Part shown: in pieces, positions 14,642 to 43,556 of the stretch | Position numbering within the stretch: position 1 is the first letter of the stretch | Layout: every line of letters begins with the position of its first letter | IMG/VR virus record: IMGVR_UViG_3300008952_001422 | Coordinates: 63,032-127,031 of that record | DNA length: 64,000 nt | From: a virus | Reading direction: 5' to 3' (one strand) | Program-made: the position numbers and the translations under genes | Notes under the pieces: generated by a model | Seen by the model: only the letters and a program-made list of their open reading frames with translations | The model's database searches: none | What the model was told of the DNA's origin: nothing

Positions 14642-15772
14642 ATGAATACTAAAGTATCAACAAACGATTTAGATGTAAGAGTTGTCAGACCTAGTGATGT
14701 TAGGGCTGAACTTAACTATGCATTTAACAGAAAACGACCTGTATTTATTTGGGGTCCTCCTGGTGTTGGTAAATCAGAAATTGTAGATAGTATCACACAA
14801 GAAAGGTCAGGTTTTATGATTGACCTTAGACTTGCTCTGATGGAACCAACTGACTTAAGAGGTATTCCTTATTTCAACGAAAAAAATGGTACAATGGAAT
14901 GGGCTACCCCTTCGGATTTACCTAGTCAAGAATTAGCAGACCAATATGAGTCCGTTATCTTATTTCTTGACGAAATGAACCAAGCACCGCAATCAGTCCA
15001 AGCGGCGGCTTATCAGTTAATTCTAAACAGACGATTAGGTTCGTATGTTTTACCAGACAACGTTTTAATCGTTGCGGCTGGAAACAGAGAGAGTGATAGA
15101 GGTGTTGCTTATAGAATGCCTTCACCACTTGCTAACAGATTTGTTCACTTAGAAATGGGTGTTGACTTTGAAGATTGGCAGACTTGGGCATTAGAGAATA
15201 AAATTCATTCTGATGTTGTAGGTTTCTTAACATCTAACAAGATGGACTTATTTAACTTTGACCCTAGAACGGCTTCAAGAGCCTTTGCTACTCCAAGAAG
15301 TTGGACTTTTGTTTCAGAAATGTTACCAAAAGAAGGCGAAGAAATCAGTGATAGCAGGTTACACGACCTAATTGCTGGTACAGTTGGTGACGGAGTTGCT
15401 ACCAAGTTCATGGCTCACAGAGCCATTTCTGGGAAGTTACCTGTTCCTGCTGATATTCTGAATGGTAAAGTTAAAACACTTTCTGTCGAGGCTAAAGAAA
15501 TTTCAGCAATGTTTTCATTAACAACTTCATTATGTTATGAGTTGAAAGACTTTGTTGACAGAAACGGTAAAAAGAAAATGGACGAGTTGTACAAAATGGC
15601 TGACAACTTCTTCAATTTTATGATGGAAAACTTCGATACTGAAATGACAGTATTGGGTGGAAGAACTGCTCTTAAAGTTTACAAGTTACCTCTAGAACCT
15701 AGAAAAGTACCTTGTATTGAGAAGTTCTTCAAAAAGCATGGGAAACTTATTATTGAGGCCCATAATGCATAA
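14642..15772 (+). CDS. MoxR-like AAA+ ATPase
   Basis: Walker A GPPGVGKS, Walker B LFLDE, AAGN, PLANRF, TPRSW. Confidence 0.9.
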   Translation: MNTKVSTNDLDVRVVRPSDVRAELNYAFNRKRPVFIWGPPGVGKSEIVDSITQERSGFMIDLRLALMEPTDLRGIPYFNEKNGTMEWATPSDLPSQELADQYESVILFLDEMNQAPQSVQAAAYQLILNRRLGSYVLPDNVLIVAAGNRESDRGVAYRMPSPLANRFVHLEMGVDFEDWQTWALENKIHSDVVGFLTSNKMDLFNFDPRTASRAFATPRSWTFVSEMLPKEGEEISDSRLHDLIAGTVGDGVATKFMAHRAISGKLPVPADILNGKVKTLSVEAKEISAMFSLTTSLCYELKDFVDRNGKKKMDELYKMADNFFNFMMENFDTEMTVLGGRTALKVYKLPLEPRKVPCIEKFFKKHGKLIIEAHNA

Positions 15773-15802
15773 ATCTCAATAATACATAGTAATAACCACT
15801 CG

Positions 15803-15847
15803 AAAAGAGGGATGTCTATTGACTTCCCTCTTTTTTTATGGTACAAT
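15803..15847 (+). promoter_or_regulatory. terminator hairpin overlapping a sigma70 promoter
   Basis: AAAAGAGGGA...TCCCTCTTTTTTT hairpin; TTGACT (15819)-17 nt-TACAAT (15842) with TG. Confidence 0.65.
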
Positions 15848-15853
15848 GATACT

Positions 15854-17233
15854 ATGATATTTGATACCATAAAGCAGATGGCTCGGGACCACGGGTCAAA
15901 GACGGCTCTTGTCTGCAAGGATAAGCAATATACCTATTCTGAACTTATAAAAAGTGTAGAAAAACTGTCTGCCATTTTATCAACTGCTATAAAACCTGGT
16001 GAAAAAGTTCTGTTTGCAAGTGAAAAAGAATATCACTATGTGAGAATGGTACTTGCTTGTGATATCTTAGGTATAACATTCATTCCAACTCATCCTAATC
16101 TACCAGAAGATTACTTATTTGATATTGTCGAAGCCTGTAAACCAGACCATGTTATAATGAATGAGAAAGATGCATTAGAACTAAAACCCCACAATAAAGG
16201 TCTAGTGTATTCTAAAAACGAGAACTCTATCTATACGGTATTATTCACAAGTGGCACAAGTGGTACTCCATCTGCGGTTACTCACTCCGCCGCCGCCTGT
16301 ATGTTTGGATGTTTAAATAGTATTTCAATACACGATTTATCATCTGATGATGTAATATTATCACAACTTCCTCCATCAACGATTGCAGGACTATACTTAT
16401 ATGCACTCCCAGGATTACTTAAAGGTGCTACTGTAATTATTGAAAAGTTCGAACCAAGACGATATATAGAATTATGTAACAAATGGAAGCCTACTATCGG
16501 CACAATGGTACCAGCAATGATACTTGCTTTACAAAAAGTTCGTAAATGGAAAGATTATAGTATGTCACATTATCGACAGTTGAGTATTGGCAGTACCGCA
16601 ATTACTAATGAAGTAATTGACTTATTGTTTGATAAGGGAGTTCCACTTGTTAGACATCTTTATGGATGTACAGAAACACACGTACCTGCACTTACATATC
16701 TTATTGAACCCGATACTAAACACAAATTGCAACTGTCAGTATCACAATTTTATGAGCATAAATTAGATAGATTTGGTGTATTGTGGTTGAAAGGACCAAC
16801 AGTAACAAAACGATACTTGAATAGTGAAGCAACCGTTATTGATGCCGAAGGATATTGGTGTACTGGTGATGTATTTGAGAGAGAACATAACGAGTTAGTA
16901 TTTAAGACACGAGAGAAAGATTTGATTAACGTAAATAGTTTCAATGTGTCACCGGTAGCAGTAGAGAACGCCATCCTTGCTTGTGATGGAGTAGATGAAG
17001 TATGTGTTACATATAGAGAACGAGGTCTTGGAGAGAATGAATTAGTAGCCGTCATACGAAGTACTGATAAAAGAATGAATAAATACTACATAACAGAACA
17101 AATAAAGACAAAGTTAATGCACTACGAATTGCCTAAAGATATCATTATTGTGACAGAAGATTTGCCACGAAATGCAATGGGTAAAATTAAAAGACACACA
17201 GTAAAGAAGACATTTTGTGAGAAGGAGGATTAA
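15854..17233 (+). CDS. ANL-superfamily adenylating enzyme (acyl-CoA/acyl-AMP ligase)
   Basis: LFTSGTSGTP, YGCTE, TGD, LPRNAMGKI; ATG at 15854 lies after the promoter. Confidence 0.9.
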   Translation: MIFDTIKQMARDHGSKTALVCKDKQYTYSELIKSVEKLSAILSTAIKPGEKVLFASEKEYHYVRMVLACDILGITFIPTHPNLPEDYLFDIVEACKPDHVIMNEKDALELKPHNKGLVYSKNENSIYTVLFTSGTSGTPSAVTHSAAACMFGCLNSISIHDLSSDDVILSQLPPSTIAGLYLYALPGLLKGATVIIEKFEPRRYIELCNKWKPTIGTMVPAMILALQKVRKWKDYSMSHYRQLSIGSTAITNEVIDLLFDKGVPLVRHLYGCTETHVPALTYLIEPDTKHKLQLSVSQFYEHKLDRFGVLWLKGPTVTKRYLNSEATVIDAEGYWCTGDVFEREHNELVFKTREKDLINVNSFNVSPVAVENAILACDGVDEVCVTYRERGLGENELVAVIRSTDKRMNKYYITEQIKTKLMHYELPKDIIIVTEDLPRNAMGKIKRHTVKKTFCEKED

Positions 17234-18979
17234 ATGAAATCTAAAGTTAAAAGTATTGTCGTAGTTGGTGGCGGTGTAGGTGGCTGGTTCTCAGCGGCTT
17301 GGATGGCAGTGAAACATCCTAATATCAAAGTAACCCTTATTGAAAGTGATAAAGTTGGAATTATAGGAGTAGGCGAAAGTACGTTGCCTCAACTGGGTAC
17401 AATGATGAAAGAGATTGGATTAGAAGAAAGAGATTGGATGACCCACACAAATTCTATTTACAAACTAGGTAATAAATTTGTTGGTTGGAACATCGAAGGC
17501 AAACGTGACCATGCAACTAATCATTTTTGGTGTTCACGATGGGACGAACAATATTATGGTTTCTCTTATGCACTACCTGAAAAGAAAATTACATCAGGTC
17601 TATATCATCCATTAGAAAAGGAAGACCTATTTAGAAATTCTAAAGGGCAACCTGGCGTTGATGATAAATGGAACGATTATTGGTTACAGTTATTACGTGA
17701 CGGTCGTAAGAACCAGTGGGAAATGGCACAAGATATGCAAGAAGGAACATATCTTATGGATTATAATAAGGCGCCGTATGATTGGGATGATAATTTATTA
17801 GTTGGCACTTGGCAAGGTGTTACATATCATGTTGATGCAAATAGATTTCCAGAAATAATCAGAGAAAAGGTTGCAATTCCTCACGGTGTTAATCACATAC
17901 ATGGTCATATCAATGATATTAAGAAAGACGATGATGGTTATATTACCTCAGTTGTTACCGAAGAAGGTGAAGAGTTTGAGGCTGATTTATTCCTTGATTG
18001 TACTGGTTTCGCCCGAGTACTAACAAAAACAATGAATGTAGAATGGATACCGATGCCAGAAATAACAACTACAAGTTTAGTTGTTGCACCAATAAAATAC
18101 AAGGATGTAAAAAAAGAATTTCGTCCATACACTATGAGTAATGCAATGGATGAGGGATGGTTATTTGTTATACCATTGTATAATCGAATGGGCTCTGGAT
18201 ACGTATATGATAGTAGCGAGATATCTAAAGAAGATGCAATGAAGAAATATAAAAAGTATTGGGAAGGTTACGAATTTATCCAAGAACCACAACATATGTC
18301 CTGGGATGCAGGAAAGTATAAAACTCAATGGAATAAAAATCTTGTATCAATTGGCATGTGTGGTTCTATGATTGAACCGATGGAAGCAAACATTCTTGGC
18401 ATTGCTCAAGCAGGATTTCAATTATGTAGTAATTTAATTTCTCGTGCAGAGGAAAAAGACGAAGTTATTGGTAGAGGTTCACTCCACGCATACAACAGGA
18501 ACATAGATTGGTTAGTTGAAACAATTAAACGATTTATTTTATTTCATTATACATTAACTGAAAGAGAAGATACTCCATTCTGGAAGAAAATGAAACAAAT
18601 GGGTATTGACGAAAAACATAAAGAAGCATGTTGGAGAGAATATAGGATACCTGCCAACAATGCTGAATCAGGAGTTCCAGATTTTATGTGGGCGATGATG
18701 GCGGTTGCTATGAATAAGTTCGATGATGATATTAAACTAAACACAAAACCACATCTAATGGAACAAGCAAATGAAAAATTCTCTTGGCTTCGAACATCAA
18801 GCAAACGAAATGGTGTGAATGCACCAAATGCCTATGAGTGGCATAAGAAGGTACTCTTTAGCAACAAGACACATGATGAAGTCCTTCAGGAGAATCTTAA
18901 AAAATATTCAAAGATTGTTAAAACTAAGGGAAAGGTAAAGTCATCCTCCAGCGGAACAATTACCTCACCTGGAAATTAA
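17234..18979 (+). CDS. tryptophan-halogenase-like flavin-dependent enzyme
   Basis: VVVGGGVGG, IGVGEST, YKLGNKFVGW (catalytic-Lys region), DCTGF, GWLFVIP, IEPMEA. Confidence 0.85.
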   Translation: MKSKVKSIVVVGGGVGGWFSAAWMAVKHPNIKVTLIESDKVGIIGVGESTLPQLGTMMKEIGLEERDWMTHTNSIYKLGNKFVGWNIEGKRDHATNHFWCSRWDEQYYGFSYALPEKKITSGLYHPLEKEDLFRNSKGQPGVDDKWNDYWLQLLRDGRKNQWEMAQDMQEGTYLMDYNKAPYDWDDNLLVGTWQGVTYHVDANRFPEIIREKVAIPHGVNHIHGHINDIKKDDDGYITSVVTEEGEEFEADLFLDCTGFARVLTKTMNVEWIPMPEITTTSLVVAPIKYKDVKKEFRPYTMSNAMDEGWLFVIPLYNRMGSGYVYDSSEISKEDAMKKYKKYWEGYEFIQEPQHMSWDAGKYKTQWNKNLVSIGMCGSMIEPMEANILGIAQAGFQLCSNLISRAEEKDEVIGRGSLHAYNRNIDWLVETIKRFILFHYTLTEREDTPFWKKMKQMGIDEKHKEACWREYRIPANNAESGVPDFMWAMMAVAMNKFDDDIKLNTKPHLMEQANEKFSWLRTSSKRNGVNAPNAYEWHKKVLFSNKTHDEVLQENLKKYSKIVKTKGKVKSSSSGTITSPGN

Positions 18980-19596
18980 TGAACGTTTTAGAAACCTGGA
19001 TAGGTGCTGACAATTTAGAATTCAAGTTAGTTGAATATACTCCTAGCATACTGGGTGATGTTCAGGCATTTTGTGAAGCCTGTGCGGCAGAAGGTATTGA
19101 AAATAACTCCAGTTTACAAGAAATGAAGTTTGGTAAATGGGGTGACTTAGAACAATGGCACATGGTATATCATGGTGATAAAATTATTAGCATAAGTGGG
19201 TCGCATTATTATCCACATTTTCATAAAGATTGTTATAGAATAATGTATCGAATGGCTACATTGAAAGCATATCGTGGGATGGCAAGTGAGAAGATATCCC
19301 TTAGAAAAATGCAACACAACTTTTGCTTTAGAGCAATTATGCCAGCACAAGTTGATTGGTGTTTAACAAAAGGAGCAACTGAAATTATCGCAACTACTAA
19401 TTCGCCAGATAATATCGATTATGGTGGGACGATGCATAAGGTTCATAATCACGGACGTAGACGCAGACCAAATACTAAATCTGATAATATGACATTAATT
19501 CAGAAAGATGCTGATGTTTACAATACAAAACAAGATATTTGGAGAGTAAATGTTAGAGATTTTGCAACAGGTAAAAAGATTAAATTTAAGAAATGA
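18979..19596 (+). CDS. GNAT-fold acyltransferase-like protein
   Basis: W..VYHGDKIISISG strand pair and RMATLKAYRG resembling GNAT motif A. Confidence 0.45.
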   Translation: MNVLETWIGADNLEFKLVEYTPSILGDVQAFCEACAAEGIENNSSLQEMKFGKWGDLEQWHMVYHGDKIISISGSHYYPHFHKDCYRIMYRMATLKAYRGMASEKISLRKMQHNFCFRAIMPAQVDWCLTKGATEIIATTNSPDNIDYGGTMHKVHNHGRRRRPNTKSDNMTLIQKDADVYNTKQDIWRVNVRDFATGKKIKFKK

Positions 19597-20744
19597 CAGT
19601 ATATATTAACGCAATCAGTGGATTAACTCCCTTTGGTAATTTAGACCAAACATGGAAAGGCATAACAGATAATAAAGTATGTTATAGTGAACTAAGAAAG
19701 TTTCCATGGGACAAATATACTAGGTCTAAAGTTGCAGGTGAAGTGAAATTTAATGCCGAAGATTATTCTAGTATATCTGAAAGAGACCGTGAGAAGATGC
19801 CAGAGTATATGCAATGGGCATTAGCATCAGCACAGGAACTATTAGATGGTAAAGAGTTAAACAAAGAAAGAACTGGTGTAATGGTTTCATCAGCATTAAG
19901 TATGCACCTTGAGACTTTAAGGGCTAATGAAAAAGATGCAGGTAACACTTTCACTTTTACACCAAACATGATATCTAATAATATTAACATTCAATATGGA
20001 TTTACTGGTCCTAGTACTATGACTTCTAGTGCCTGTTCTACAGGAATGTATAGTGTTATTATTGGATGTATGTTAATAGAAACTGGACAAGCAGATAATA
20101 TAATTGCTGGTGCATTTGATGATTCCGTATCACCAGATTCCTATAAACAGTTCGGAAAACTTAGGGCATTATCTACAAAATTCAATAATACTCCAGAAAA
20201 GGCATCTCGACCTTGGGACACAAAACGTGATGGATTGGTACTTAGTGAGGGTGGAGCAATGTTCTTATTATCTAATGAGAAGACATCAGAGACATTGGCA
20301 GAGATATCTGGTTACTCCATGAACAATGATGCTTATCAAGTCGTGGCACCTCATCCTGAGGGGATTATGATAGAGAAATGCATGAAAGATACGTTAAATG
20401 GACGTATTCCAGACTTAATTAATGCTCATGCCACATCTACTCCTATGGGCGATTATATTGAAATAGACGCACTTAATCGGCTTGGACTACAAGATGTATG
20501 GGTAACTGCAAATAAGTCGCAAATAGGGCATCTCATGGGGGCGGCCGGGGCTATGGAGTTGGCTTTAAGTGTACTATCATTGAAACATGGTGCAATAACT
20601 CCGTCATTAAATATAGATTACTTAGAAGATGGCTACAACATAAAGTATACTCCAACCACCAAGAACTATATGGTAGATTCAGTTCTATGTAATAGTTTCG
20701 GATTTGGTGGTGCAAATGCAAGTATTTTACTGTCTAAAACTTGA
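19593..20744 (+). CDS. fabF: beta-ketoacyl-ACP synthase (FabF-like)
   Basis: SACSTG catalytic Cys, INAHATST and KSQIGHLMGAAG His pair, NSFGFGG. Confidence 0.9.
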   Translation: MTVYINAISGLTPFGNLDQTWKGITDNKVCYSELRKFPWDKYTRSKVAGEVKFNAEDYSSISERDREKMPEYMQWALASAQELLDGKELNKERTGVMVSSALSMHLETLRANEKDAGNTFTFTPNMISNNINIQYGFTGPSTMTSSACSTGMYSVIIGCMLIETGQADNIIAGAFDDSVSPDSYKQFGKLRALSTKFNNTPEKASRPWDTKRDGLVLSEGGAMFLLSNEKTSETLAEISGYSMNNDAYQVVAPHPEGIMIEKCMKDTLNGRIPDLINAHATSTPMGDYIEIDALNRLGLQDVWVTANKSQIGHLMGAAGAMELALSVLSLKHGAITPSLNIDYLEDGYNIKYTPTTKNYMVDSVLCNSFGFGGANASILLSKT

Positions 20745-20768
20745 CAGGATTAACATTTGTGTTATAAT
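20741..20768 (+). promoter_or_regulatory. sigma70-type promoter
   Basis: TTGACA-16 nt-TATAAT. Confidence 0.65.
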
Positions 20769-20791: not shown

Positions 20792-21598
20792 ATGGATATG
20801 ATAGATAAATCAAAAAAACACACTTATATAGACTTTGAGGACTCAAAAGTAGTCTTATACTTTAGTAAGTATAATTTTACTGGTTCTGAAAAAACACTCA
20901 AAGATATGCAGGACAAGGATTCTCCTCACGTTTTTACTAAAACTGAGGTATTAAGTGCATCGATAATTGCAGATAAATTCAATGATAAGTATGTGAAATC
21001 TTCTGGTGCATTTGATATAGTTGAGGGCGAGTTTATGAAGACTGCTTTCAGTAATAAAGATATTTTGATAGGAATTCTGACCAATTATCGTCATTTGATT
21101 ACAAATAAAACATATCAGGAAGCAAAAGAGATAATGGCATATCTTGAGGATAAGTTTGCATTTAAAATTCTTGCTGATAATTTAACTGATTTTGAACATG
21201 GAATTGCTAAATTTCTGGCTGATGATAATTCATTGAGTAGTCACACATTGGGAATTGCCGCATATATTCCTACTTATTATGCAACCCATACAAAAAGTGA
21301 TGAACTTAAAGATAGAAGTACACAATCTGGTCACTTAGGTAAGATAGGTGAAAAAATTACTACTGAAATTGAGATACTATCATCAAAATATCTAGCAGAA
21401 ACTCAATTTGGTGGGTCAGGTTATATGGTTAATGCTATCACAAGTGATAATCATAGATTATCTTTTTTCACTGCAAATGAAGATATAGCAAACAGTAAAA
21501 AGAATGTTAAGGTTTCTTGTAAGATAAAATCTAAAGGAACCGCTTGGAAAGACGATAGTGTCAACGAAACCAGGGTAAATTATGTTAAATTTGCTTAA
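20792..21598 (+). CDS. hypothetical protein with probable C-terminal OB-fold
   Basis: SGHLGKIGEKI...ETRVNYVK pattern. Confidence 0.55.
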   Translation: MDMIDKSKKHTYIDFEDSKVVLYFSKYNFTGSEKTLKDMQDKDSPHVFTKTEVLSASIIADKFNDKYVKSSGAFDIVEGEFMKTAFSNKDILIGILTNYRHLITNKTYQEAKEIMAYLEDKFAFKILADNLTDFEHGIAKFLADDNSLSSHTLGIAAYIPTYYATHTKSDELKDRSTQSGHLGKIGEKITTEIEILSSKYLAETQFGGSGYMVNAITSDNHRLSFFTANEDIANSKKNVKVSCKIKSKGTAWKDDSVNETRVNYVKFA

Positions 21599-33330: not shown

Positions 33331-34536
33331 TTAATATATTCCTTTTTTGGTTAGTTTTATGTTCAAATCGGAGCACCTCGTTGTGCATACTTTTAGTTTT
33401 GGATTATTTTCATCGCCATATTCATTAGAAAAACTGTCTTCTAAATCTTTAGTAAAGAAGTCATGACTTATTATATCATGAAATGAATGCGAATGCAAGT
33501 TGTTCCATCCTTCATTGTACTTTTTAGTGAATCTGAGCCAGTTTTCTCGTTCTCCAGCATCAAATTCGGTTTTATATTGATAATTTGAATTCATCCAACA
33601 GCATCTCCATACAGAACCATCATGAGATATTTGATATCTATTATTGGCTCCCCATATACACGTAATGCCTGCAGTTTCTCTTATTTTCTCTAAGTTCTGA
33701 TGTGCATCAAGTTTTGTGTCAATTGGAATATCCTTGATGACTTCTTTTGCCTTCTTTAAGTTTTCATTAACTAATTCTTCACTAATGTTCAGCAAATCTT
33801 CATCTTCTTCTTTCATCTTATCGAGTTCATTCAATTTTTCACTCAAAGCAATCTGTACTGCTTTTTGTTCAACTCTTTGAATTCTGTTTCTTTGAAATTT
33901 TTGAAATCCATGTTTTGCGGCTAGTATCTTTGCCTGTTCCTCTAGTTCGTCATTGAAATCAAAAGGAATCATTTTCCATACAGCCTGACCACCACCACTA
34001 ATAAATGCTTCTGCATTTTCTATTATTTTATCAAAGTCTGTGGAAATTCTGTACATATTCTGTGTTTTGTTATCTATGCCATCTAAGTCAAACATTACAT
34101 GATGTCTATTTGGTAGATGTTCGTTTAATATTTCACCAAGTTTTTTCCAAAAGGCTGGTGTCTTATATGAACCGTTTGTTGAAATAGTCATATCGTGTAA
34201 TCCATTAAACTCAGGACTTAATTGTCCTATCTTCTCGTCACCAAATGGCTCAACGTCACCTTTTAGTTTTGAGGCTGAATATTCTATCATTTCTAAAAAG
34301 TCTGGATGAAAAGGACTATCACCAAAACTTCCATCGTATGTCATATACTTCACTTTAGATTTCTCAGCAAGGTCATCAATAAGTTTATTGTGTACTTCTA
34401 AAGGCAAGTTCCAGTTCTTAGGTGGAGCAGATACTAAATCTGTATTTGGATTAAATACTTTATGTCTAATACAGCCAGGACATTTTGCTTGGCAGTTAGA
34501 CGTTACCTCAATCGTTATTTCCATATCTCTAATCAT
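33331..34536 (-). CDS. radical SAM protein with C-terminal SPASM/Twitch
   Basis: CQAKCPGC; C...DGSVWRCCW...CTTRC. Confidence 0.9.
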   Translation of the reverse strand: MIRDMEITIEVTSNCQAKCPGCIRHKVFNPNTDLVSAPPKNWNLPLEVHNKLIDDLAEKSKVKYMTYDGSFGDSPFHPDFLEMIEYSASKLKGDVEPFGDEKIGQLSPEFNGLHDMTISTNGSYKTPAFWKKLGEILNEHLPNRHHVMFDLDGIDNKTQNMYRISTDFDKIIENAEAFISGGGQAVWKMIPFDFNDELEEQAKILAAKHGFQKFQRNRIQRVEQKAVQIALSEKLNELDKMKEEDEDLLNISEELVNENLKKAKEVIKDIPIDTKLDAHQNLEKIRETAGITCIWGANNRYQISHDGSVWRCCWMNSNYQYKTEFDAGERENWLRFTKKYNEGWNNLHSHSFHDIISHDFFTKDLEDSFSNEYGDENNPKLKVCTTRCSDLNIKLTKKGIY

Positions 34537-35698
34537 TTATATAATTCCATACTTTTGGTGCCATTGTTTCACATGATACATTATATAGTTCATCCTGTAG
34601 TCGAACTAGTTCTTTAAATTTGTTACTATCAGTTGTTCTTTTACCTTTCAATCGTTGGGCAAATTCAGCAGTGAAATCATTCATAATTAAATCATCTAGT
34701 ATTTCATCTTTCGTTTCTTCTTCTAAATTTACAATATCCAATGCTTGTGGCCAATGAACAAATGTTGTTCTTATATTTACTTTTTTTGTTGGTATAGTTG
34801 CCTTAATGTCCAAGAAATCATTGTATATTTGGTTCATATAAAATGCATGATACGCCGTTGTAGTACACACAAATAAGAAATTGTGAACAAGTGGTGCTAC
34901 TTCCTTAATGTTATTTAGAACTGTCTGATAGTCTCCGTCTGTTCTAAAGTAGTTAAATAAGTCACCTGTTCCGTCTAATGATACTGTAACACTTACTCTT
35001 TTGAAATGAGGCCATAATGTTTTAACTGTCCAACCTTTATATTCTAGTATACTCATGTTAGTATTATAGACCAGAGATATCTTTTTCGTATCAATTCTCG
35101 GGTCATCAATCATTCTTTGTAATGTCTTATACATATCTCTTGTATAGAATGGTTCACCACCAGAAAACTCAATGTTCTCTACTGTAGGTAATACATTTTC
35201 AAATAGGTCATCCATAACTCGGTCGTCTGGAATCTCTATCTTGTTTGTAGGAAAAGAGATATGACTAAAATTGAAATCTTTTCTTAACTTTAATTCTATT
35301 GTTGGATTATCTTTACCAGTCTGTTCAAATCTAGAGTTTGATGATGTATCACAATGTCTACATTTATAGTTACAGGCACGTGTCATCTTCAGTTGTAAAT
35401 CTCTTATATGAATTGTATCTGAATCATAATCTGGCTCTGAATGAATAGTATTCTCTAGTGACCTAGTTCTATACGAAGATAATCCAGACTCTTCCTGTAT
35501 CTGACAATCAATACAACCTGCAGGCCATTCATCGTTTCTTAACTGCTGTCGAACTTTAATAAAGTCGCTGTTGTTAATCACTTGTGATGGTAGTTTATCT
35601 AAATCAGATTCTACTAAATCATTTCGTTTGAATCTAAAGCAAGGAGCATATCCACCAGACTTTAAATCTAAATGTGACCATGCATATTTACATTTCAT
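34529..35698 (-). CDS. N-terminal Twitch radical SAM protein
   Basis: N-terminal C..PC..CIDC; CNYKCRHC; GGEP; SLDG. Confidence 0.9.
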   Translation of the reverse strand: MKCKYAWSHLDLKSGGYAPCFRFKRNDLVESDLDKLPSQVINNSDFIKVRQQLRNDEWPAGCIDCQIQEESGLSSYRTRSLENTIHSEPDYDSDTIHIRDLQLKMTRACNYKCRHCDTSSNSRFEQTGKDNPTIELKLRKDFNFSHISFPTNKIEIPDDRVMDDLFENVLPTVENIEFSGGEPFYTRDMYKTLQRMIDDPRIDTKKISLVYNTNMSILEYKGWTVKTLWPHFKRVSVTVSLDGTGDLFNYFRTDGDYQTVLNNIKEVAPLVHNFLFVCTTTAYHAFYMNQIYNDFLDIKATIPTKKVNIRTTFVHWPQALDIVNLEEETKDEILDDLIMNDFTAEFAQRLKGKRTTDSNKFKELVRLQDELYNVSCETMAPKVWNYIND

Positions 35699-36987
35699 TG
35701 TAGTTCTCCTGCTTCGTATCTCTGTTGTATATATTTAAGTGAGAAATCTGGGTCTTTCATCATCTTATCTACTTCAGTATATCCCTCTAATTCAGTACAT
35801 AATTTATAAAGAATATCTTTTTCTTTCATTGCTTGTACTAACTCAGGATTATAATCTTCTATATTAGAATCATAATATTCTGTATCTAATAGATGAGTTT
35901 TTCTCAAAAATAAATACCATGCATATTCTTTTTCTTCTTGTGGTACTCTATTCTTTTTTAGTATTTTAATAGCCCTATCTATTTTTACTTGTGCGGCTGG
36001 TAAACGTTCTTTGCTTTTCCATTCATCTAATATCCATTGCTCGTACCAATCAGGTGCTAAGTGTGGACAATACTCGCCAGACTCTACCATCTTAAAAGAC
36101 ACAGACCAACTTGGATGGTTCTTAGCATAGTAATCCATATCATCTGCAAATCCATTTAGATTTAATGTACTGTATGTCGAATGTATATGTCCCTTTTCTA
36201 TATTCTTTAATTGTGATAGATATTCTTCATAGATGTCTAATGATTCTTTCCAACCTGGTGAACCCCAACGTTGATATGAATTATAATCATTACATCCATC
36301 CACTGAACCAGTCAATATGATTTTTCTGAAACGATTTAGTTTCTCAATCATTACATCATCTAATCTCTTTGTAGTGTTTGTAATTATTTCTAGTAACACA
36401 TCTTCTACTTTACATTTTTCAATCAACCAATCTATCAACTTTGGAAAGTTTGGTGAGAAGAATGGTTCTCCACCTAATACTTTAATCTTTGTTAGATGTT
36501 GCCAATCTACATTCAATGATTTTAGATATTCAATTCTTTGTTTTGGTATTGTTGTAGGTTGTCTACCTCGCATTCCTTTTTCATTTAATAGAAAGTCATC
36601 TCGATAATATAACTTACTTGAAAACAAAGAGTCACACATCTTACATTGTAGATTACATAGGTTGTCTAAACTCAATTCTATAGAACGTAACTTGTCAAAG
36701 TCTTCAGTTAATTTTGCTTGTTCTAATTTAAAATGTACATTATTGGCAGCCCATCGCATTGACTCATTACCTTCAGAATAACATAGAGAACATTCTTTCG
36801 ATTTCTTTCCCTCTAACATGTTCTTTCTTAGCCATCTATACTTATCATCGAATGGCTTCATTGCATCTTCTTCTATATGGTCTTCATCATTGCCTACTGT
36901 AAATCTACAGCAAGGTCTGGCAACATTCTTCATAGAAACTGCCATATGATTCCATGCTAACATACATACTACACCGTTATCTTTCAT
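35695..36987 (-). CDS. N-terminal Twitch radical SAM protein
   Basis: PCC...CSLC; CNLQCKMC; GGEP; SVDG. Confidence 0.9.
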   Translation of the reverse strand: MKDNGVVCMLAWNHMAVSMKNVARPCCRFTVGNDEDHIEEDAMKPFDDKYRWLRKNMLEGKKSKECSLCYSEGNESMRWAANNVHFKLEQAKLTEDFDKLRSIELSLDNLCNLQCKMCDSLFSSKLYYRDDFLLNEKGMRGRQPTTIPKQRIEYLKSLNVDWQHLTKIKVLGGEPFFSPNFPKLIDWLIEKCKVEDVLLEIITNTTKRLDDVMIEKLNRFRKIILTGSVDGCNDYNSYQRWGSPGWKESLDIYEEYLSQLKNIEKGHIHSTYSTLNLNGFADDMDYYAKNHPSWSVSFKMVESGEYCPHLAPDWYEQWILDEWKSKERLPAAQVKIDRAIKILKKNRVPQEEKEYAWYLFLRKTHLLDTEYYDSNIEDYNPELVQAMKEKDILYKLCTELEGYTEVDKMMKDPDFSLKYIQQRYEAGELQ

Positions 36988-38162
36988 ATCATCATTACCT
37001 TAAATCGGTCATCTAAATCTCTAACGTTTTCACTTCTATAATTGTCATATTTATTTTGCAATGCAACAAATTCCTTTCGGGCATATTCAGTATAAGGAGT
37101 ATCTCTTAAAATTTTTATTCCATTTTCGGCAGTATTAACTTTACTTCTTGTTGCCCAGTCATCTCTAGATTTGGGTAGTTCTTTGATATAGTTTTCTAAG
37201 TATTTTATTGACTTCTGTTTCAAGTCATTGGGTATACAAGCAATTGACATTCCAGTTGGCACCCATACTTGATTAATAATTACCTCTATACCAATATCCA
37301 TAAGTTCATTCCACCATTTGTCTAGTGTTACCATATTAATAGCAGTAGCAGTACATTGAATAGTAACACCACAATTAGTTGTAGGGTCATCTGATATTTT
37401 CTTATATACTAACATGTTTTGTTTAACGGTATTCCATTTGATACTGCTTTTTCTTTGAAACTCTTGTGTTGGTCCTGATGCATCTACTGATAGAATAACC
37501 TGTAGGCCTGCACCGCTACAAAATTTCATTAAAGTTTTTATCCATTTGTCAGAGGCGTTAGTTGCATTAGTTGTTACAAGAATTGGGATATTTGAATAAG
37601 TATCAGCAACATAGTTCATAAATTTTCTTATTTTTAAATCAATTGATGGCTCGCCACCTAGAATAGATATTTCTTCACAATGAGTCAAATCTAAATCATA
37701 TGCATCTGATGTATCTAAGTGTTTTATAAAGCCTTCCTCATGTGTTTTGATATGTTTTCCAAATTGTGCCCCAGCGGCTACAATTTCTTCTTCAAGTAGT
37801 GATGAAGATTGTGGACCACACATTCTACACATCATGTTGCATTTATTACCTGCTCTATAGTCTAATCGTATTATTTTATTTAAACCAGGTGCTTCATAAT
37901 CAACATCGTTATCCCATTGTTCGTAATACTTTCTTCTAGAGTGTCCACCAATTTTCTCGTTGTGTATACATTCTATACAACCTGGGTCAGTTCTGTCACG
38001 ATACATCATCTCTTTGAATCTTTTTAAGTAATCAGATTTAATATATTCTTCATATGTCCCCCAAAATGTATCATTTTTCCACTCACAACAAGGCTGACAT
38101 CCTTGAGTGGCTTCATATGCTAATCCTAACCATGGAGCATTACAGTAAGGTTTATCACGCAT
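36984..38162 (-). CDS. N-terminal Twitch radical SAM protein
   Basis: PCC...CIEC; CNMMCRMC; GGEP. Confidence 0.9.
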   Translation of the reverse strand: MRDKPYCNAPWLGLAYEATQGCQPCCEWKNDTFWGTYEEYIKSDYLKRFKEMMYRDRTDPGCIECIHNEKIGGHSRRKYYEQWDNDVDYEAPGLNKIIRLDYRAGNKCNMMCRMCGPQSSSLLEEEIVAAGAQFGKHIKTHEEGFIKHLDTSDAYDLDLTHCEEISILGGEPSIDLKIRKFMNYVADTYSNIPILVTTNATNASDKWIKTLMKFCSGAGLQVILSVDASGPTQEFQRKSSIKWNTVKQNMLVYKKISDDPTTNCGVTIQCTATAINMVTLDKWWNELMDIGIEVIINQVWVPTGMSIACIPNDLKQKSIKYLENYIKELPKSRDDWATRSKVNTAENGIKILRDTPYTEYARKEFVALQNKYDNYRSENVRDLDDRFKVMMI

Positions 38163-39261
38163 TTAGTATCTCCTCAAATCTGTAATCTAAGTCATTTATA
38201 TTTTCATTTCTCCAGTCGTCCATTTTCTTAACTTCTCTTTTGAAACTTTCATTATACTTCTTGTCATATCTATTCATTTTAAGCAATTTAATTGCTTCTT
38301 TTGCCTCCATCTTTTGTCTGAAGATTTTGGATTCTTTTGATATCCAATCCTCTAGCCATTGTATTTGGACATCTTTATATTTGTCTGGAATTGCTTTAAG
38401 ACTATATGAGATTGGATATACAACAGCAGAAGAAGTCAGAGGTATATCTAACTCCATAAGTTCTTCCCACCATGTATCTAACATAGTGAAATTTATTGAC
38501 GATGCTGTGATTTGAATTTTTATTTGATTTTCAAACTCTTTTTTATACTTTATTATATTCTTTTTTAATTCTTTCCAATCACTTCCTTTTCGTTGAAAGT
38601 CATTAGCATCTCCAGTAGCATCAATTGATAACCAAATGGTCAGTTTCTTTAACTGCTTTAATGAATCAAACCATTTATCAGAAGCATTTGTTCCATTGGT
38701 TGTTACAAATACGTGAGTATCAAAGTCTTTAACATGGTCTATCCATCTTCTCACTTCTAAATCGATAGATGGTTCTCCACCTAATATTGAAAGTTCTTCA
38801 CATTTAGATAAATCAATGTCGTATGCATCACTCATATCTTCTACTCTGAATATTGGATTTGCATTGTTGAATTTAATTTCTTCTTCTTCACGCATAGATG
38901 AAGCCTCAGGATGACACATTCTACACATTAGATTGCACTTGTTTCCTGCTCTGAAATCAAACTTGACTAATTTGTTATCGTTTGATTTATAATTAACCTT
39001 ATGTCTTAGCATTCTTAATCTTGTTGAGTCGTTGTTTATTTTTTCGCCATCAATACATACTTTACAACCTTTACTCATATCATCTTCGTACATCATCTCT
39101 TTAAAATTCTTCAAGTAATCAGATTTTATATAATCTGTATATCTACCCTTAAATGTGGAATCATAAGTGGCATCATTATATTCACAACATGGCTTACATC
39201 CTACTGAACTTTCATATGCTAATCCTATCCATGGTGCATTGCAATATGGCTTATCACGCAT
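38155..39261 (-). CDS. N-terminal Twitch radical SAM protein
   Basis: PCC...CKVC; CNLMCRMC; GGEP. Confidence 0.9.
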   Translation of the reverse strand: MRDKPYCNAPWIGLAYESSVGCKPCCEYNDATYDSTFKGRYTDYIKSDYLKNFKEMMYEDDMSKGCKVCIDGEKINNDSTRLRMLRHKVNYKSNDNKLVKFDFRAGNKCNLMCRMCHPEASSMREEEEIKFNNANPIFRVEDMSDAYDIDLSKCEELSILGGEPSIDLEVRRWIDHVKDFDTHVFVTTNGTNASDKWFDSLKQLKKLTIWLSIDATGDANDFQRKGSDWKELKKNIIKYKKEFENQIKIQITASSINFTMLDTWWEELMELDIPLTSSAVVYPISYSLKAIPDKYKDVQIQWLEDWISKESKIFRQKMEAKEAIKLLKMNRYDKKYNESFKREVKKMDDWRNENINDLDYRFEEILNA

Positions 39262-40618
39262 CGAATAGGTCCTTATACTGAGGAACGATATCTAATATGT
39301 TTTGGTCTCTTACTTCGTCAAGTTTTTTTGTTATCTTAACAAATTCGTTTAGCCAGTCTTTAGAGTAATCTTCACTTAACATAAATCTAACAGTTGAATC
39401 TAAAACAGTACAGAAATGCTTCTTCGTTTTCTCTGGATGGTCACTAGCATTTACCCAGTCTTTGTATTCTTCATACAATGCAACTACTTCTTGCTTGTTC
39501 TTTTCTGGTAACACTTTAATGTTATAGTATTTTGGTGAGTGACACATATGTTGTGTTATTGTTGGTCGTGGACTATGATGAGGATTAAACTTATCTAATC
39601 CAGACTCTTCTAATTTCCATTTCATAAATTCTGGCATATGATATACATTCATTGGTGTAACTGTAAAGGCAAACCATGCTTTCAAGTTGATAGTTGGATT
39701 GTCATTTAACGTTTTCATATGTTTATATACTGCCGGGAACTTTGCTGGTGTTCTTTGATAATCAAAAACATTATTACATCCATCAATACTAACACCGATA
39801 CGAATTTGTTTAAACTGTTCCCATAAATGTACCAGTCTATTTGGAACCATAGTAAGATTTGTGTTATATTCTAATTGTATTTCGCCTGCGTTACCACTTG
39901 CAACTAGTTTCTCTAAACTCTCTTGGTGTTCAGCAATGATTAATGGTTCACCACCAACGATGTATAATTTCTTAGCAGTAGTACAATATTTGTCAAACTG
40001 TTCCCAGTAATGGTCAGCATTCTTAAACCAATCATATTGGTCAGTAGCCCATTTACCTTTGTTATTTTGTACTAATTCAATTCTATCATGGGTATCTTTG
40101 TAGGTAGTTCTTCCAGTTATCTTTACAAAATCATCATACCACTTATGAGAATCTGTGGGTCCGCACATTCTACATTTTAGATTACAGAAATTACCATAAC
40201 GAATATCAAAGAAGTCGATGTTCTGTTTTTCAACATCAAGTGTTCCGTCTTCTTCTGTGACTTCGTGAATTCGTTCTTCAGAAAGTCCCCAATCTTCAGT
40301 TTCATATTCTCGTCTTGACCTGATTCCATTTATTTCTTCTTGTCTGCAACGTTCACATTCTGGATGCCACTCACCTTTCATCATAGTCTTGCGAACATCT
40401 TTCAATAGCACAGCATTTCTGGCTACATTAAAATCATCACGTCCAGCATTATAAGGGGTGCCATCCTCTTTCTTCATTATGCCACGTTGAGGTGAATACG
40501 AATTCGTATTACAACATATTCTCAAATCACCATTATTTCTAAGATTGATTGAGTTCCATGGCATTGGACAAAGTGTGTTTCCTTTTGATTTTGGTACGTT
40601 ATCGAAATCTTTACTCAT
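39254..40618 (-). CDS. N-terminal Twitch radical SAM protein
   Basis: CPMPW, ICC...CERC; CNLKCRMC; GGEP; SIDG. Confidence 0.9.
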   Translation of the reverse strand: MSKDFDNVPKSKGNTLCPMPWNSINLRNNGDLRICCNTNSYSPQRGIMKKEDGTPYNAGRDDFNVARNAVLLKDVRKTMMKGEWHPECERCRQEEINGIRSRREYETEDWGLSEERIHEVTEEDGTLDVEKQNIDFFDIRYGNFCNLKCRMCGPTDSHKWYDDFVKITGRTTYKDTHDRIELVQNNKGKWATDQYDWFKNADHYWEQFDKYCTTAKKLYIVGGEPLIIAEHQESLEKLVASGNAGEIQLEYNTNLTMVPNRLVHLWEQFKQIRIGVSIDGCNNVFDYQRTPAKFPAVYKHMKTLNDNPTINLKAWFAFTVTPMNVYHMPEFMKWKLEESGLDKFNPHHSPRPTITQHMCHSPKYYNIKVLPEKNKQEVVALYEEYKDWVNASDHPEKTKKHFCTVLDSTVRFMLSEDYSKDWLNEFVKITKKLDEVRDQNILDIVPQYKDLFDA

Positions 40619-40627
40619 AATATATCC

Positions 40628-41290
40628 TTAATTAAATCCCCATTCTCGTTCTTTACACCACCAGCATTCACCACAATGTTCCAGTCCAGGGTCTTTTATA
40701 TTGTCAAAATATTCGCAAGTTGGGTCATACTCACAACTTCTTGTTATTGGCAATAAACTATCTATTAATTTTTCTTTTCTATACATACTTGCAATGTCTT
40801 TTTTATTAGTGTTAGCCCATGGCATGTAGAACTTATCATCATTATATAACATAATATTATTACCAGTGTCACTTCTTGATGAATCAAATCCTAATATTGG
40901 AGTGAATTGACTCGCAATATCATGTGGTGGATTCATCGTTGTTCCATCGTACACTATATTTATTTCTTGTTTGTCTATATCTTTTTGTGGTGCATTACAT
41001 GGTGAACTCTCTGTTGCGGCCTCATCATAATGTATATGATGTATTACGTTATTATTTTCTGTTAGTTCTATGCATTTCTCTACCACTCTTGGCGCAATAA
41101 TTGAATTCCTTCTATACTTTAAATTACTTCCAGTTGTATAGATATGGATAGTGTCTTTAATGTGTTTCATTAGATAGTATAATAATATAGCACTATCAAC
41201 ACCACCACTAACCATTATTCCTATTGGTCCGTCATATATTTTAACACTAACTTCCTCTGTAAGTAGAATAACTCCTGAACATTTAGCCAT
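40628..41290 (-). CDS. QueC-like PP-loop ATPase
   Basis: SGGVDS; TRSCE...CGECWWCKER.WGF. Confidence 0.75.
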   Translation of the reverse strand: MAKCSGVILLTEEVSVKIYDGPIGIMVSGGVDSAILLYYLMKHIKDTIHIYTTGSNLKYRRNSIIAPRVVEKCIELTENNNVIHHIHYDEAATESSPCNAPQKDIDKQEINIVYDGTTMNPPHDIASQFTPILGFDSSRSDTGNNIMLYNDDKFYMPWANTNKKDIASMYRKEKLIDSLLPITRSCEYDPTCEYFDNIKDPGLEHCGECWWCKEREWGFN

Positions 41291-43511: not shown

Positions 43512-43539
43512 TTGTTACCTTCTGATATTATTATATCAG

Positions 43540-43547
43540 TATTTATC
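43540..43547 (-). promoter_or_regulatory. late-type promoter candidate
   Basis: GATAAATA on - strand in the 45-nt gap upstream of 43511. Confidence 0.45.
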
Positions 43548-43556
43548 TGTTGAATT

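What the first reader, a model, noticed from the sequence alone, without database searches (positions are those of the whole stretch)
15803..20744. Mini biosynthetic operon: acyl-adenylating enzyme, halogenase-like, GNAT-like, FabF
Seen: four abutting or overlapping genes with their own promoter, bounded by an upstream terminator and the next promoter. FabF keeps its Cys-His-His triad. The halogenase keeps GxGxxG and the catalytic-Lys region, but has WxFxIP instead of WxWxIP. No ACP was seen in the window. Inference: a phage pathway for a halogenated or oxidised acyl chain that is activated, extended and transferred to an amine (lipid, signal molecule or protein), probably using host ACP. Single viral halogenases are known, but this arrangement looks like a small-molecule cluster.
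Basis: partly seen in the sequence, partly recalled or inferred. Interest (0 to 1): 0.8.

Follow-up and report, generated by a model that had tools for sequence, protein, structure and literature searches.

The report
Jumbo-phage ligase-halogenase-GNAT-ketosynthase operon
An uncultured giant marine phage carries a tightly packed, conserved four-enzyme operon that looks like a small virus-owned pathway for a modified, possibly halogenated, acyl compound whose product is still unknown.

Summary
The four genes are real, and the stated motifs are present. They are an ANL ligase, a Trp-halogenase-family flavoprotein (Lys and Glu kept, WxFxIP), a 205-aa protein now shown to be GNAT-fold, and a Cys-His-His ketosynthase.

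They abut or overlap. A sigma-70-like promoter sits at 15819-15847, which implies a ligase start at 15854. A perfect promoter follows at 20741. No upstream terminator was found.

The gene order is kept in 18 other IMG/VR contigs plus one metagenome contig, down to 46-60% identity, always between the MoxR and VWA genes. Some sister lineages have one or two membrane desaturases spliced in.

The "host ACP" idea is weakened. The same 127-kb record encodes an AcpP-like ACP and an AcpS, and ACP was found in 6 of 6 module-bearing records against 0 of 5 module-less relatives. However, the ACP sits next to IscA, which shows the same pattern.

More distant phages pair a mini-ligase, a GNAT and a short halogenase without any ketosynthase.

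Best reading (about 0.5): one pathway that activates, extends, tailors and N-transfers an acyl group. Halogenation and the product are unproven.

This scan already found the same cassette in at least six other genomes. My literature searches found no description of it.

The parts
15819..15847 (+). Sigma-70-like promoter of the operon (TTGACT-17 nt-TACAAT with TG). Its -10 element ends 6 nt before ATG 15854, so the mRNA would be leaderless or nearly so.
   Evidence: The same element at 11 of 12 lies directly before the ligase start in L011, L016 and L008, and in the same region in L003 and L009.
15854..17233 (+). ANL-superfamily acyl/aryl-adenylating ligase. It is 459 aa from ATG 15854; the ORF as called from 15812 gives 473 aa. 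The P-loop reads TSGTSGTPS, with Ser in place of Lys in this lineage only. The YGCTE, TGD, R-x-KD and A10 GKIKR motifs are kept.
   Evidence: Pfam PF00501 1.1e-42 and PF13193 2.1e-6. Best NCBIfam hit is PRK06187, 192 bits, below the 476 cutoff. Best PDB hits are fatty-acyl/feruloyl-CoA synthetases at 1.9e-27. Motifs. It belongs to a phage-only clade at >=51% identity; the next cellular relatives are <=29%.
17234..18979 (+). Trp-halogenase-family flavoprotein, 581 aa. It keeps GxGxxG, GVGEST, the Lys of YKLGNKF and the Glu of EPMEAN. The second motif is WxFxIP. The Ser after the Glu is Ala. The Lys/Ser-rich C-terminal tail varies between strains.
   Evidence: PF04820 2.6e-85. 30 solved chains at 3.8e-59 to 2.4e-35, named tryptophan halogenase, LooH or VirX1 (6qgm, 4e-55). 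Motifs across 7 module lineages. A 64-65-nt tail indel appears in contigs from RNA libraries.
18979..19596 (+). GNAT-fold protein, 205 aa, of a divergent family seen here almost only in viral and metagenome data. It is the presumed N-acyltransferase.
   Evidence: No Pfam, NCBIfam or PHROG hit on its own. 127 family representatives at E<=1e-3 among 1.84e9 proteins. 4 of 76 relatives hit PF00583. Profile against PDB GNAT 3t9y gave 5.6e-5. AF2 pLDDT 87.4. Foldseek and VIA hits are all GNATs.
19593..20744 (+). FabF/FabB-type elongating beta-ketoacyl synthase, 383 aa. This is about 30 aa shorter than cellular FabF. The Cys-His-His triad, the Lys and the NSFGFGG motif are kept.
   Evidence: PF00109 and PF02801. 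TIGR03150 fabF scores 269 bits, below the 493.75 cutoff. Best PDB FabF hit 8.3e-61, with the triad aligned. Triad present in 6 of 6 lineages. It belongs to a phage clade at >=53% identity; cellular FabF is <=37% identical and 409-428 aa long.
20741..20768 (+). Perfect sigma-70 consensus promoter of the next gene (20792-21598). It marks the 3' boundary of the operon.
   Evidence: The window has 5 perfect matches against 0.13 expected.

Best explanation
The four genes form one early operon, probably read by the host sigma-70 polymerase, in an uncultured marine jumbo phage. I propose they work as a single small pathway.

Proposed steps:
1. The ANL ligase adenylates a carboxylic acid, most likely a fatty or other acyl acid. 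It loads the acid as a thioester, most plausibly onto the phage's own AcpP-like ACP, which the phage AcpS would have made holo.
2. The shortened FabF-type ketosynthase extends the acyl chain by one or more malonyl units, giving a beta-ketoacyl intermediate.
3. The Trp-halogenase-family flavoprotein tailors the intermediate or the product. It would halogenate an activated carbon or an aromatic ring, using host-supplied reduced flavin.
4. The GNAT-fold protein transfers the acyl group to an amine acceptor.

In sister lineages, membrane desaturases built into the same operon add unsaturation.

Shown: enzyme families, catalytic residues, operon structure, conservation, purifying selection, and the presence of ACP and AcpS.

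Inferred: the substrate, the use of the phage ACP, the order of the steps, halogenation, the acceptor and the product.
For: Families and catalytic residues:
- All four proteins belong to the stated families and keep their catalytic residues.
- The third protein is GNAT-fold.

Operon structure:
- Stop and start codons abut or overlap.
- A conserved promoter lies directly before the ligase and a perfect promoter follows the KS.

Conservation:
- The order ligase-Hal-GNAT-KS is kept in 5 of 5 close loci.
- It is also kept in 14 of 14 further module-bearing loci in three more lineages. KS is cut by the contig end in L010 and L014.
- Identity to the window over the representatives compared is: ligase 57-84%, Hal 56-90%, GNAT 46-91%, KS 59-85%.
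- The module always sits between the MoxR-like and DUF2201/VWA genes.
- Desaturase genes (PF00487 2.3e-14) are inserted inside the operon with overlapping reading frames in L008, L010-L016 and L009.

Carrier protein:
- The phage has its own ACP (PF00550 2.8e-11; TIGR00517 61 bits) and AcpS (TIGR00516 94 bits, above the 59.8 cutoff).
- ACP is present in this record and in 5 of 5 other module-bearing records, although those five are only 18-28% complete. It is absent from 0 of 5 module-less relatives that are 25-72% complete.

Function and expression:
- Omega is 0.09-0.22 for all four genes, similar to the flanking core genes.
- The ligase and KS each form phage-only clades far from cellular enzymes.
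- Contigs from four seawater RNA libraries of three studies cover parts of all four genes. They span the Hal/GNAT and GNAT/KS junctions.
Against: - The ACP lies 31 kb from the operon. Its conserved neighbour is IscA/HscB-like, both here and in G001. The module-less relatives also lack IscA (0 of 5), so the ACP pattern does not single out this module.
- AcpS was found in 0 of 5 other module records, all of which are fragments.
- The 127-kb record shows no FabD, flavin reductase or desaturase. No search was made for a ketoreductase, dehydratase or thioesterase.
- All 30 solved relatives of the flavoprotein at E<=1e-5 are named tryptophan halogenase, LooH or VirX1. None is named as one of the carrier-protein-dependent or aliphatic halogenases that I recall (PltA, CndH, CmlS).
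- The best solved relatives of the ligase include aromatic-acid CoA ligases.
- The WxWxIP motif is altered to WxFxI[P/S] in all 7 module sequences, and the Ser after the catalytic Glu is Ala or Gly.
- More distant phages carry the ligase-like/GNAT/halogenase-like trio without KS or ACP nearby. The KS may therefore be an add-on.
- Contigs from RNA libraries cannot exclude contaminating DNA.
Confidence: 0.5

Rival explanations
1. The conserved core is the ligase-like/GNAT/flavoprotein trio, acting without a carrier protein. The ligase would activate an acid, possibly an aromatic one. The GNAT would couple it to an amine on a small molecule, peptide or protein. The flavoprotein would halogenate or oxidise an aromatic ring. 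The ketosynthase, the ACP and the desaturases would be lineage-specific additions.
For: - A ligase-like ORF lies directly upstream of, and overlapping, an ORF3-family GNAT in 11 further loci outside the module clade: L032, L034-L043.
- In 6 of them (L035, L037-L041) a short halogenase-like gene is convergent. No KS is nearby.
- Overall, 25 of the 35 loci pair the GNAT with an ANL-like gene.
- Solved relatives of the flavoprotein are all named tryptophan halogenase, LooH or VirX1.
- The best solved relatives of the ligase include feruloyl- and 4-coumarate-CoA ligases.
Against: - The mini-ligases (213-307 aa) lack the N-terminal region. The two aligned (L035, L038) also lack the whole C-terminal domain with the A10 Lys, so they may not be autonomous enzymes.
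- In the module clade the KS is present wherever the contig reaches it. It keeps its triad and is under purifying selection.
- The membrane desaturases inside the operon point to aliphatic chains.
Confidence: 0.2
2. The genes are independent auxiliary metabolic genes that each adjust host membrane-lipid metabolism. The KS would boost elongation, the ligase would recycle free fatty acids, and the desaturases would tune fluidity. The GNAT and the flavoprotein would do unrelated jobs. There would be no joint product.
For: - fabF, fabG, fabZ and desC have been listed as single viral AMGs in marine viromes (PMC10653327, passages read).
- Cyanophage desaturases are known AMGs (PMC5776448, listing and start of abstract only).
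- The site between the MoxR and VWA genes takes up variable cargo.
- Group E phages carry the GNAT alone.
Against: - The KS and ligase are not recent host copies. They form phage-only clades with <=37% and <=29% identity to the nearest cellular proteins, and the KS is about 30 aa shorter.
- The KS scores below the FabF equivalog cutoff.
- The same order and overlapping reading frames are kept across four lineages. The desaturases are inserted between module genes, not beside them.
Confidence: 0.15
3. The GNAT is a Pat/AcuA-like protein acyltransferase. It would switch the neighbouring ligase off or on by acylating its catalytic A10 lysine, and would not be a biosynthetic transferase.
For: - Protein acetyltransferases are among the top structural matches. 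These include the S. lividans PAT GNAT domain in complex with the acetyl-CoA synthetase C-terminal domain: 4u5y, Z 11.8, TM 0.56/0.67.
- The ligase keeps the A10 Lys.
- The Pat/Acs regulation itself is recalled from my own knowledge.
Against: - Z-scores of all 50 GNAT rows lie within 1.7 units of one another, so the match does not discriminate.
- The two mini-ligases aligned, which are paired with the same GNAT family in distant phages, lack the C-terminal domain and its A10 Lys.
Confidence: 0.05

Closest known systems
JamA-JamB-JamC starter cassette (with halogenase JamD) of jamaicamide biosynthesis in cyanobacteria
   Same: It combines an ANL acyl-ACP ligase, a membrane-bound desaturase that works on the ACP-bound chain, and a dedicated ACP (10.1101/291195; I saw the search listing and the start of the abstract). 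Sister lineages of this phage module carry ligase, membrane desaturase(s) and a phage ACP.
   Different: This phage record has no desaturase. Its ACP is 31 kb away, next to IscA. The phage module adds a discrete FabF-type KS and a GNAT. Its halogenase-like protein is of the Trp-halogenase family. No sequence comparison with the Jam proteins was possible here.
cmlK/cmlS pair of chloramphenicol biosynthesis (AMP-ligase plus the flavin-dependent halogenase CmlS, which makes the dichloroacetyl group later found as an amide)
   Same: An adenylating ligase is adjacent to a flavin-dependent halogenase, with halogenation proposed on an enolisable acyl thioester and an N-acyl end product. For CmlS I read passages of review PMC8407142.
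   Different: The phage protein scores 19 bits against the CmlS equivalog model, whose cutoff is 900. It resembles Trp halogenases far more closely. The cml pair includes no KS.
Carrier-protein-dependent GNAT acyltransferases: SbzI (altemicidin), FeeM-type N-acyl amino acid synthases and the GNATs of ribosomal lipopeptides
   Same: These are GNAT-fold enzymes that take an acyl group from a carrier protein rather than from CoA and form an amide (PMC11685415 and PMC8784127; listings and starts of abstracts only). FeeM (2g0b) matched the first ORF3 model at Z 8.8.
   Different: The resemblance is at fold level only, with 5-17% identity across the listed GNAT rows. FeeM is not among the 50 listed rows for the better model. 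The donor used by ORF3 is unknown.
VirX1 and the other single 'tryptophan halogenase' genes of cyanophages and Pelagibacter phage HTVC008M
   Same: They belong to the same Pfam family and are carried by viruses. VirX1 (6qgm) matches at 4e-55. Cultured-phage homologues are <=29.5% identical.
   Different: In HTVC008M the gene stands beside 2OG-Fe(II) oxygenase genes and in Syn10 beside hypothetical genes. Neither has a ligase, GNAT or KS nearby. The phage module protein has WxFxI[P/S] instead of WxWxIP.
Bacterial FabF (KAS II)
   Same: The fold, the Cys-His-His triad and the Lys and Phe gate motifs are shared.
   Different: It has <=37% identity to cellular FabF and is about 30 aa shorter. It scores 269 bits against the 493.75 cutoff of the FabF equivalog model.

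Membership tests
ANL superfamily (AMP-binding adenylating ligases) | AMP-binding N-terminal domain plus the small C-terminal domain | tested here: met
   PF00501 1.1e-42 (above cutoff) and PF13193 2.1e-6 (29 bits against 24.5).
ANL superfamily (AMP-binding adenylating ligases) | Core motifs: P-loop TSG(T/S)TGxPK, YGxTE, TGD, RxKD and the A10 catalytic Lys | tested here: met
   YGCTE, TGD, REKD and GKIKR are present. The P-loop is TSGTSGTPS: Lys is replaced by Ser in the window and L003 only, and is Lys in the 5 other module lineages.
Acyl-ACP synthetase (loads ACP rather than CoA) | Demonstrated transfer to holo-ACP | not testable with these tools
   No equivalog model was reached; the best is PRK06187 at 192 bits against a 476 cutoff.
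FabF / KAS II | Thiolase-fold KS N- and C-terminal domains with the Cys-His-His triad | tested here: met
   PF00109 and PF02801. The triad aligns to FabF 4jga and is present in 6 of 6 lineages.
FabF / KAS II | Score above NCBIfam's FabF equivalog cutoff (orthology to housekeeping FabF) | tested here: not met
   TIGR03150 scores 269 bits against a 493.75 cutoff. The nearest cellular FabF proteins are <=37% identical.
Flavin-dependent halogenase (Trp-halogenase family PF04820) | Family domain, the GxGxxG flavin motif, the catalytic Lys and the Glu | tested here: met
   PF04820 2.6e-85. GGGVGG, YKLGNKF and EPMEAN align to solved halogenases and are conserved in 7 of 7 module lineages.
Flavin-dependent halogenase (Trp-halogenase family PF04820) | WxWxIP motif | tested here: not met
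   The motif is GWLFVIP here and WxFxI[P/S] in 7 of 7 module sequences. The review PMC8407142 says the motif or its variants are absent from a number of active FDHs such as Bmp5 (passage read). This therefore weakens the assignment but does not exclude halogenase activity.
Flavin-dependent halogenase (Trp-halogenase family PF04820) | Halide-dependent C-H halogenation with a reduced-flavin supply | not testable with these tools
   No flavin reductase (PF01613) is present in the 127-kb record. The host could supply one.
GNAT superfamily | GNAT fold | tested here: met
   The model has pLDDT 87.4 and pTM 0.84. Foldseek gave 164 matches at E<=1e-3, and all listed rows are GNATs (best 1.4e-5). VIA gave 50 of 50 listed rows as GNATs, Z 10.3-12.0, rmsd 3.0-4.1 over 124-166 residues.
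GNAT superfamily | Sequence match to a GNAT family model | tested here: inconclusive
   The protein itself matches 0 Pfam or NCBIfam families. 4 of 76 relatives hit PF00583, best 2.1e-5. The family profile hits PDB GNAT 3t9y at 5.6e-5.
GNAT superfamily | Q/R-x-x-G-x-G/A CoA pyrophosphate loop after strand 4 | tested here: inconclusive
   The sequence after strand 4 is LKAYRGMAS. By my own reading this is only a partial match to the recalled motif. This loop has lower confidence in the model.
JamABC-type acyl-ACP ligase / desaturase / ACP cassette | Ligase, membrane desaturase and dedicated ACP encoded together | tested here: inconclusive
   A ligase is present. There is no desaturase in this record, but there are 1-2 inside the operon in L008-L016. 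An ACP is present but lies 31 kb away beside IscA.

The most novel reading that the evidence does not exclude
A whole clade of giant marine phages makes its own natural product during infection. The product would be a halogenated, in some lineages unsaturated, N-acyl compound. It would be assembled on a virus-encoded carrier protein by a virus-specific ligase, ketosynthase and Trp-halogenase-type enzyme acting on an enolisable acyl thioester, and released by a new acyl-ACP-dependent GNAT family. It might serve as a signal, a membrane modifier or a weapon against competitors.
Probability: 0.25. Interest if true: 0.85.

Novelty: new variant of a known kind. Interest (0 to 1): 0.62.

Why it matters
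Phage auxiliary genes are usually single enzymes that boost a host pathway. Here a multi-enzyme, self-promoted operon is conserved and under selection in uncultured marine jumbo phages. Every component forms a phage-specific clade, and the phage has its own carrier-protein genes.

If it makes a discrete compound, viruses would be a source of natural-product chemistry and of new enzymes. These would include a shortened KS, a Trp-type halogenase with an altered motif, and a new GNAT family.

Infected cells in the sea would then release a virus-specified, possibly organohalogen, metabolite.

The operon is small enough to be tested directly by heterologous expression.

Tried and rejected
I used the search for related loci instead.
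- Searching with P0006 found nothing in viral contigs or metagenome contigs.
- The ORF3-family GNAT from locus L038 (group F) had no tblastn match in cultured phages.
- A blastn search of the whole region found only a 129-nt MoxR match in Bacillus phage G.
- A genome-contig scan with the ORF3 alignment A4 found 0 relatives among one genome per prokaryote species. That search is limited to its patterns.
- KS hits in the cultured-phage collection were <=39% identical. They fell mostly in unannotated records, so I did not count them as phage KS genes.
- Complex prediction of the ligase (alignment A5) with ORF3 (alignment A2) gave 'no answer' (score 0.00 against a mark of 0.32; controls were not run). 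This is no evidence either way.
- The first ORF3 model, built from 7 sequences, was poor (pLDDT 62) and was replaced.
- The idea that the ACP pattern proves a link to the module was dropped after IscA showed the same presence/absence pattern.
- Parts of the ligase (about 15700-16400 and 16840-17120) had no cover in the four RNA-library runs. Contigs cannot show absence.
- Literature searches found no description of this cassette.

Full report
WHAT IS THERE

The window is the second half of a 127,031-bp linear IMG/VR virus record. Its GC content is 34%, and CheckV estimates completeness at 35, so the complete genome is probably a jumbo phage. Its DNA polymerase is 42-48% identical to those of the jumbo phages Phosso, Atu_ph07, SE_PL/Munch and CBB.

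Four co-directional ORFs lie at 15812-17233, 17234-18979, 18979-19596 and 19593-20744. They abut or overlap by 1 and 4 nt.

- Ligase: an ANL ligase (PF00501 1.1e-42, PF13193).
- Flavoprotein: a Trp-halogenase-family protein (PF04820 2.6e-85).
- Third protein: 205 aa, with no family hit in Pfam, NCBIfam or PHROGs.
- Ketosynthase: has both KS domains. It scores 269 bits against the FabF equivalog model, below the 493.75 cutoff.

RESIDUES

The KS Cys, His and His align to FabF structures.

The flavoprotein aligns to 30 solved chains (3.8e-59 to 2.4e-35) named tryptophan halogenase, LooH or VirX1. The GxGxxG motif, the Lys (YKLGNKF) and the Glu (EPMEAN) are in place. GWLFVIP sits where the solved enzymes have GWxWxIP, and Ala sits where they have the Ser after the Glu. 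None of the 30 is named as one of the carrier-protein-dependent or aliphatic halogenases that I recall. CmlS reaches only 19 bits.

A review states that WxWxIP or its variants are missing from some active halogenases such as Bmp5 (PMC8407142, passages read). The change therefore lowers confidence in halogenase activity but does not exclude it.

The ligase keeps the YGCTE, TGD, RxKD and A10 Lys motifs. Its P-loop Lys is Ser in this lineage only.

THE THIRD PROTEIN

Only 8 clusters were found by the word-based search. A profile search over 1.84 billion representatives found 127 at E<=1e-3.

With a 76-sequence alignment, AlphaFold gave pLDDT 87.4.
- Foldseek returned 164 PDB matches at E<=1e-3, and every listed row is a GNAT.
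- VIA-align returned 50 of 50 listed rows as GNATs, with Z 10.3-12.0.
- 4 of 76 relatives hit PF00583.
- The family profile hits a PDB GNAT at 5.6e-5.

The Z-scores do not single out any GNAT subtype.

SIGNALS

The window has 5 perfect TTGACA-N16-18-TATAAT sites, against 0.13 expected. They include 14583 (before the MoxR-like gene), 20741 (right after the KS) and 21602.

Between the MoxR gene and the ligase gene there is no perfect site. There is a TTGACT-17-TACAAT site at 15819-15847, inside the ORF as called. The same element at 11 of 12 lies 6-10 nt before the ligase ATG in L011, L016 and L008, and in the same region in L003 and L009. Those ligases start at the residue equivalent to Met15. 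I therefore place the start at 15854, with a leaderless or nearly leaderless transcript.

No + strand terminator was found.

CONSERVATION

The order ligase-Hal-GNAT-KS is kept in 5 of 5 close IMG/VR loci. It is also kept in 14 of 14 further module-bearing loci. One of those is the same contig as L003, which gives 18 distinct contigs. Metagenome contig L008 adds one more.

The module always sits between the MoxR-like and DUF2201/VWA genes.

Identities to the window fall to 57% (ligase), 56% (Hal), 46% (GNAT) and 59% (KS).

Lineage variants:
- L009 adds a desaturase after the KS.
- L008 and L010-L016 have one desaturase between Hal and GNAT and another between GNAT and KS, with overlapping frames.

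Omega is 0.09-0.22 for all four genes.

The ligase and KS form phage-only clades (>=51% and >=53% identity). These are separated by a gap from cellular proteins (<=29% and <=37%).

RNA-library contigs from four seawater runs of three studies cover parts of all four genes and bridge two gene junctions. They cannot exclude DNA carry-over.

CARRIER PROTEIN

Outside the window, the record encodes an AcpP-like ACP (C1:47400-47636) and an AcpS (C1:9197-9577).

ACP was found in 5 of 5 other module-bearing records and in 0 of 5 module-less relatives. Those relatives also lack the KS and halogenase families.

There are three caveats.
- The ACP's conserved neighbour is IscA/HscB-like.
- IscA is also 0 of 5 in the module-less set.
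- AcpS was 0 of 5 in the other module records, all of which are fragments.

The ACP link is therefore plausible but not shown.

WIDER ASSOCIATION

Of the 35 loci found with the GNAT alignment:
- 14 carry the full module.
- 10 carry the GNAT alone, in another context.
- 11 carry a 213-307-aa ligase-like ORF directly upstream of the GNAT site. In the nine where the GNAT ORF is held whole it overlaps the ligase-like ORF, and in L042 and L043 the locus ends inside the GNAT. In 6 of the 11 a short halogenase-like gene is convergent, and none has a KS.

The ligase/GNAT/flavoprotein association is therefore older and wider than the KS.

MECHANISM

My best reading (0.5) is one pathway: acid activation, loading onto the phage ACP, KS extension, flavoprotein tailoring and GNAT transfer to an amine. 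Only the families, residues, operon structure and conservation are shown. The rest is inferred.

The rivals are:
- a carrier-free ligase-GNAT-flavoprotein core acting on an aromatic or amine substrate (0.2);
- unrelated lipid AMGs (0.15);
- a Pat-like regulatory GNAT (0.05).

KNOWN RELATIVES AND NOVELTY

The closest analogies are:
- JamABC plus JamD;
- cmlK/cmlS;
- the carrier-protein-dependent GNATs (SbzI, FeeM, lipopeptide GNATs);
- VirX1-type phage halogenases.

All of these are analogies of layout or fold, not of orthology.

Searches of the paper library found no description of this cassette. Single viral fabF and desC genes are listed as AMGs (PMC10653327).

This scan has already reported the same cassette in at least six other genomes, with similar conclusions. 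What I add:
- the mini-ligase/GNAT/halogenase trio in distant phages;
- the IscA confound for the ACP;
- the corrected ligase start and its promoter;
- the P-loop change;
- the RNA-library cover.

LIMITS

- Supplementary files of papers were closed.
- No structure was predicted for the other three proteins.

Noticed in passing
window 33331-44648, minus strand: This is a run of tandem genes. 8 of the 10 ORFs scanned (33331-46815) match Radical_SAM (E 9e-12 to 1.7e-5), and one of them also has a weak SPASM match. No link to the operon was tested.
   Followed up: partly
record C1:46513-47636 (outside the window; locus L001 593-1716) and L051 1130-1728: The phage ACP gene follows directly after an IscA-type Fe-S assembly gene, both here and in another module-bearing record. 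In this record an HscB-like co-chaperone gene also lies just upstream. The ACP may serve Fe-S cluster assembly rather than, or as well as, the operon.
   Followed up: partly
window 7520, 14583, 20741, 21602 (+ strand) and 24406-24377 (- strand): There are five perfect TTGACA-N16-18-TATAAT promoters, against 0.13 expected by chance. This suggests early genes read by a host sigma-70-type polymerase.
   Followed up: partly
L035 7748-10141; L038 9301-11543; also L032, L034, L036: Other uncultured phages carry a mini AMP-binding-like ORF of 213-307 aa. Those of L035 and L038 begin at the P-loop and lack the C-terminal domain. The ORF overlaps an ORF3-family GNAT. In L035 and L037-L041 there is also a convergent short halogenase-like gene (366-415 aa where complete) with WxWxI[A/Y]. 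In L035 and L038 these sit among many conserved ORFs of unknown function.
   Followed up: partly
window 18913-18978: The Lys/Ser-rich C-terminal tail of the halogenase-like protein varies between strains. RNA-library contigs from three runs replace 64-65 nt with 4-14 other letters. Relatives L004-L007 align only to residue 555 of 581.
   Followed up: no
window 16247-16273 (ligase P-loop); L008 ligase: The ligase P-loop Lys is Ser in the window and L003 only. The L008 ligase has TDD in place of the TGD motif.
   Followed up: no
L024 6299-12453: In module-less relatives the ORF3-family GNAT sits among other genes: large membrane and exported-protein ORFs that looked TctA/TctC-like to me by eye, a Cys-rich ORF that may be radical-SAM, and a possible ATP-grasp ORF. 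None of these was scanned against a family library.
   Followed up: no
record C1:8372-9130 (L002 667-1425) and C1:45980-46465 (L001 60-545): A short UDP-glucose/GDP-mannose dehydrogenase-like gene (252 aa) lies just upstream of AcpS. A RyR-domain protein lies upstream of the HscB-like gene.
   Followed up: no
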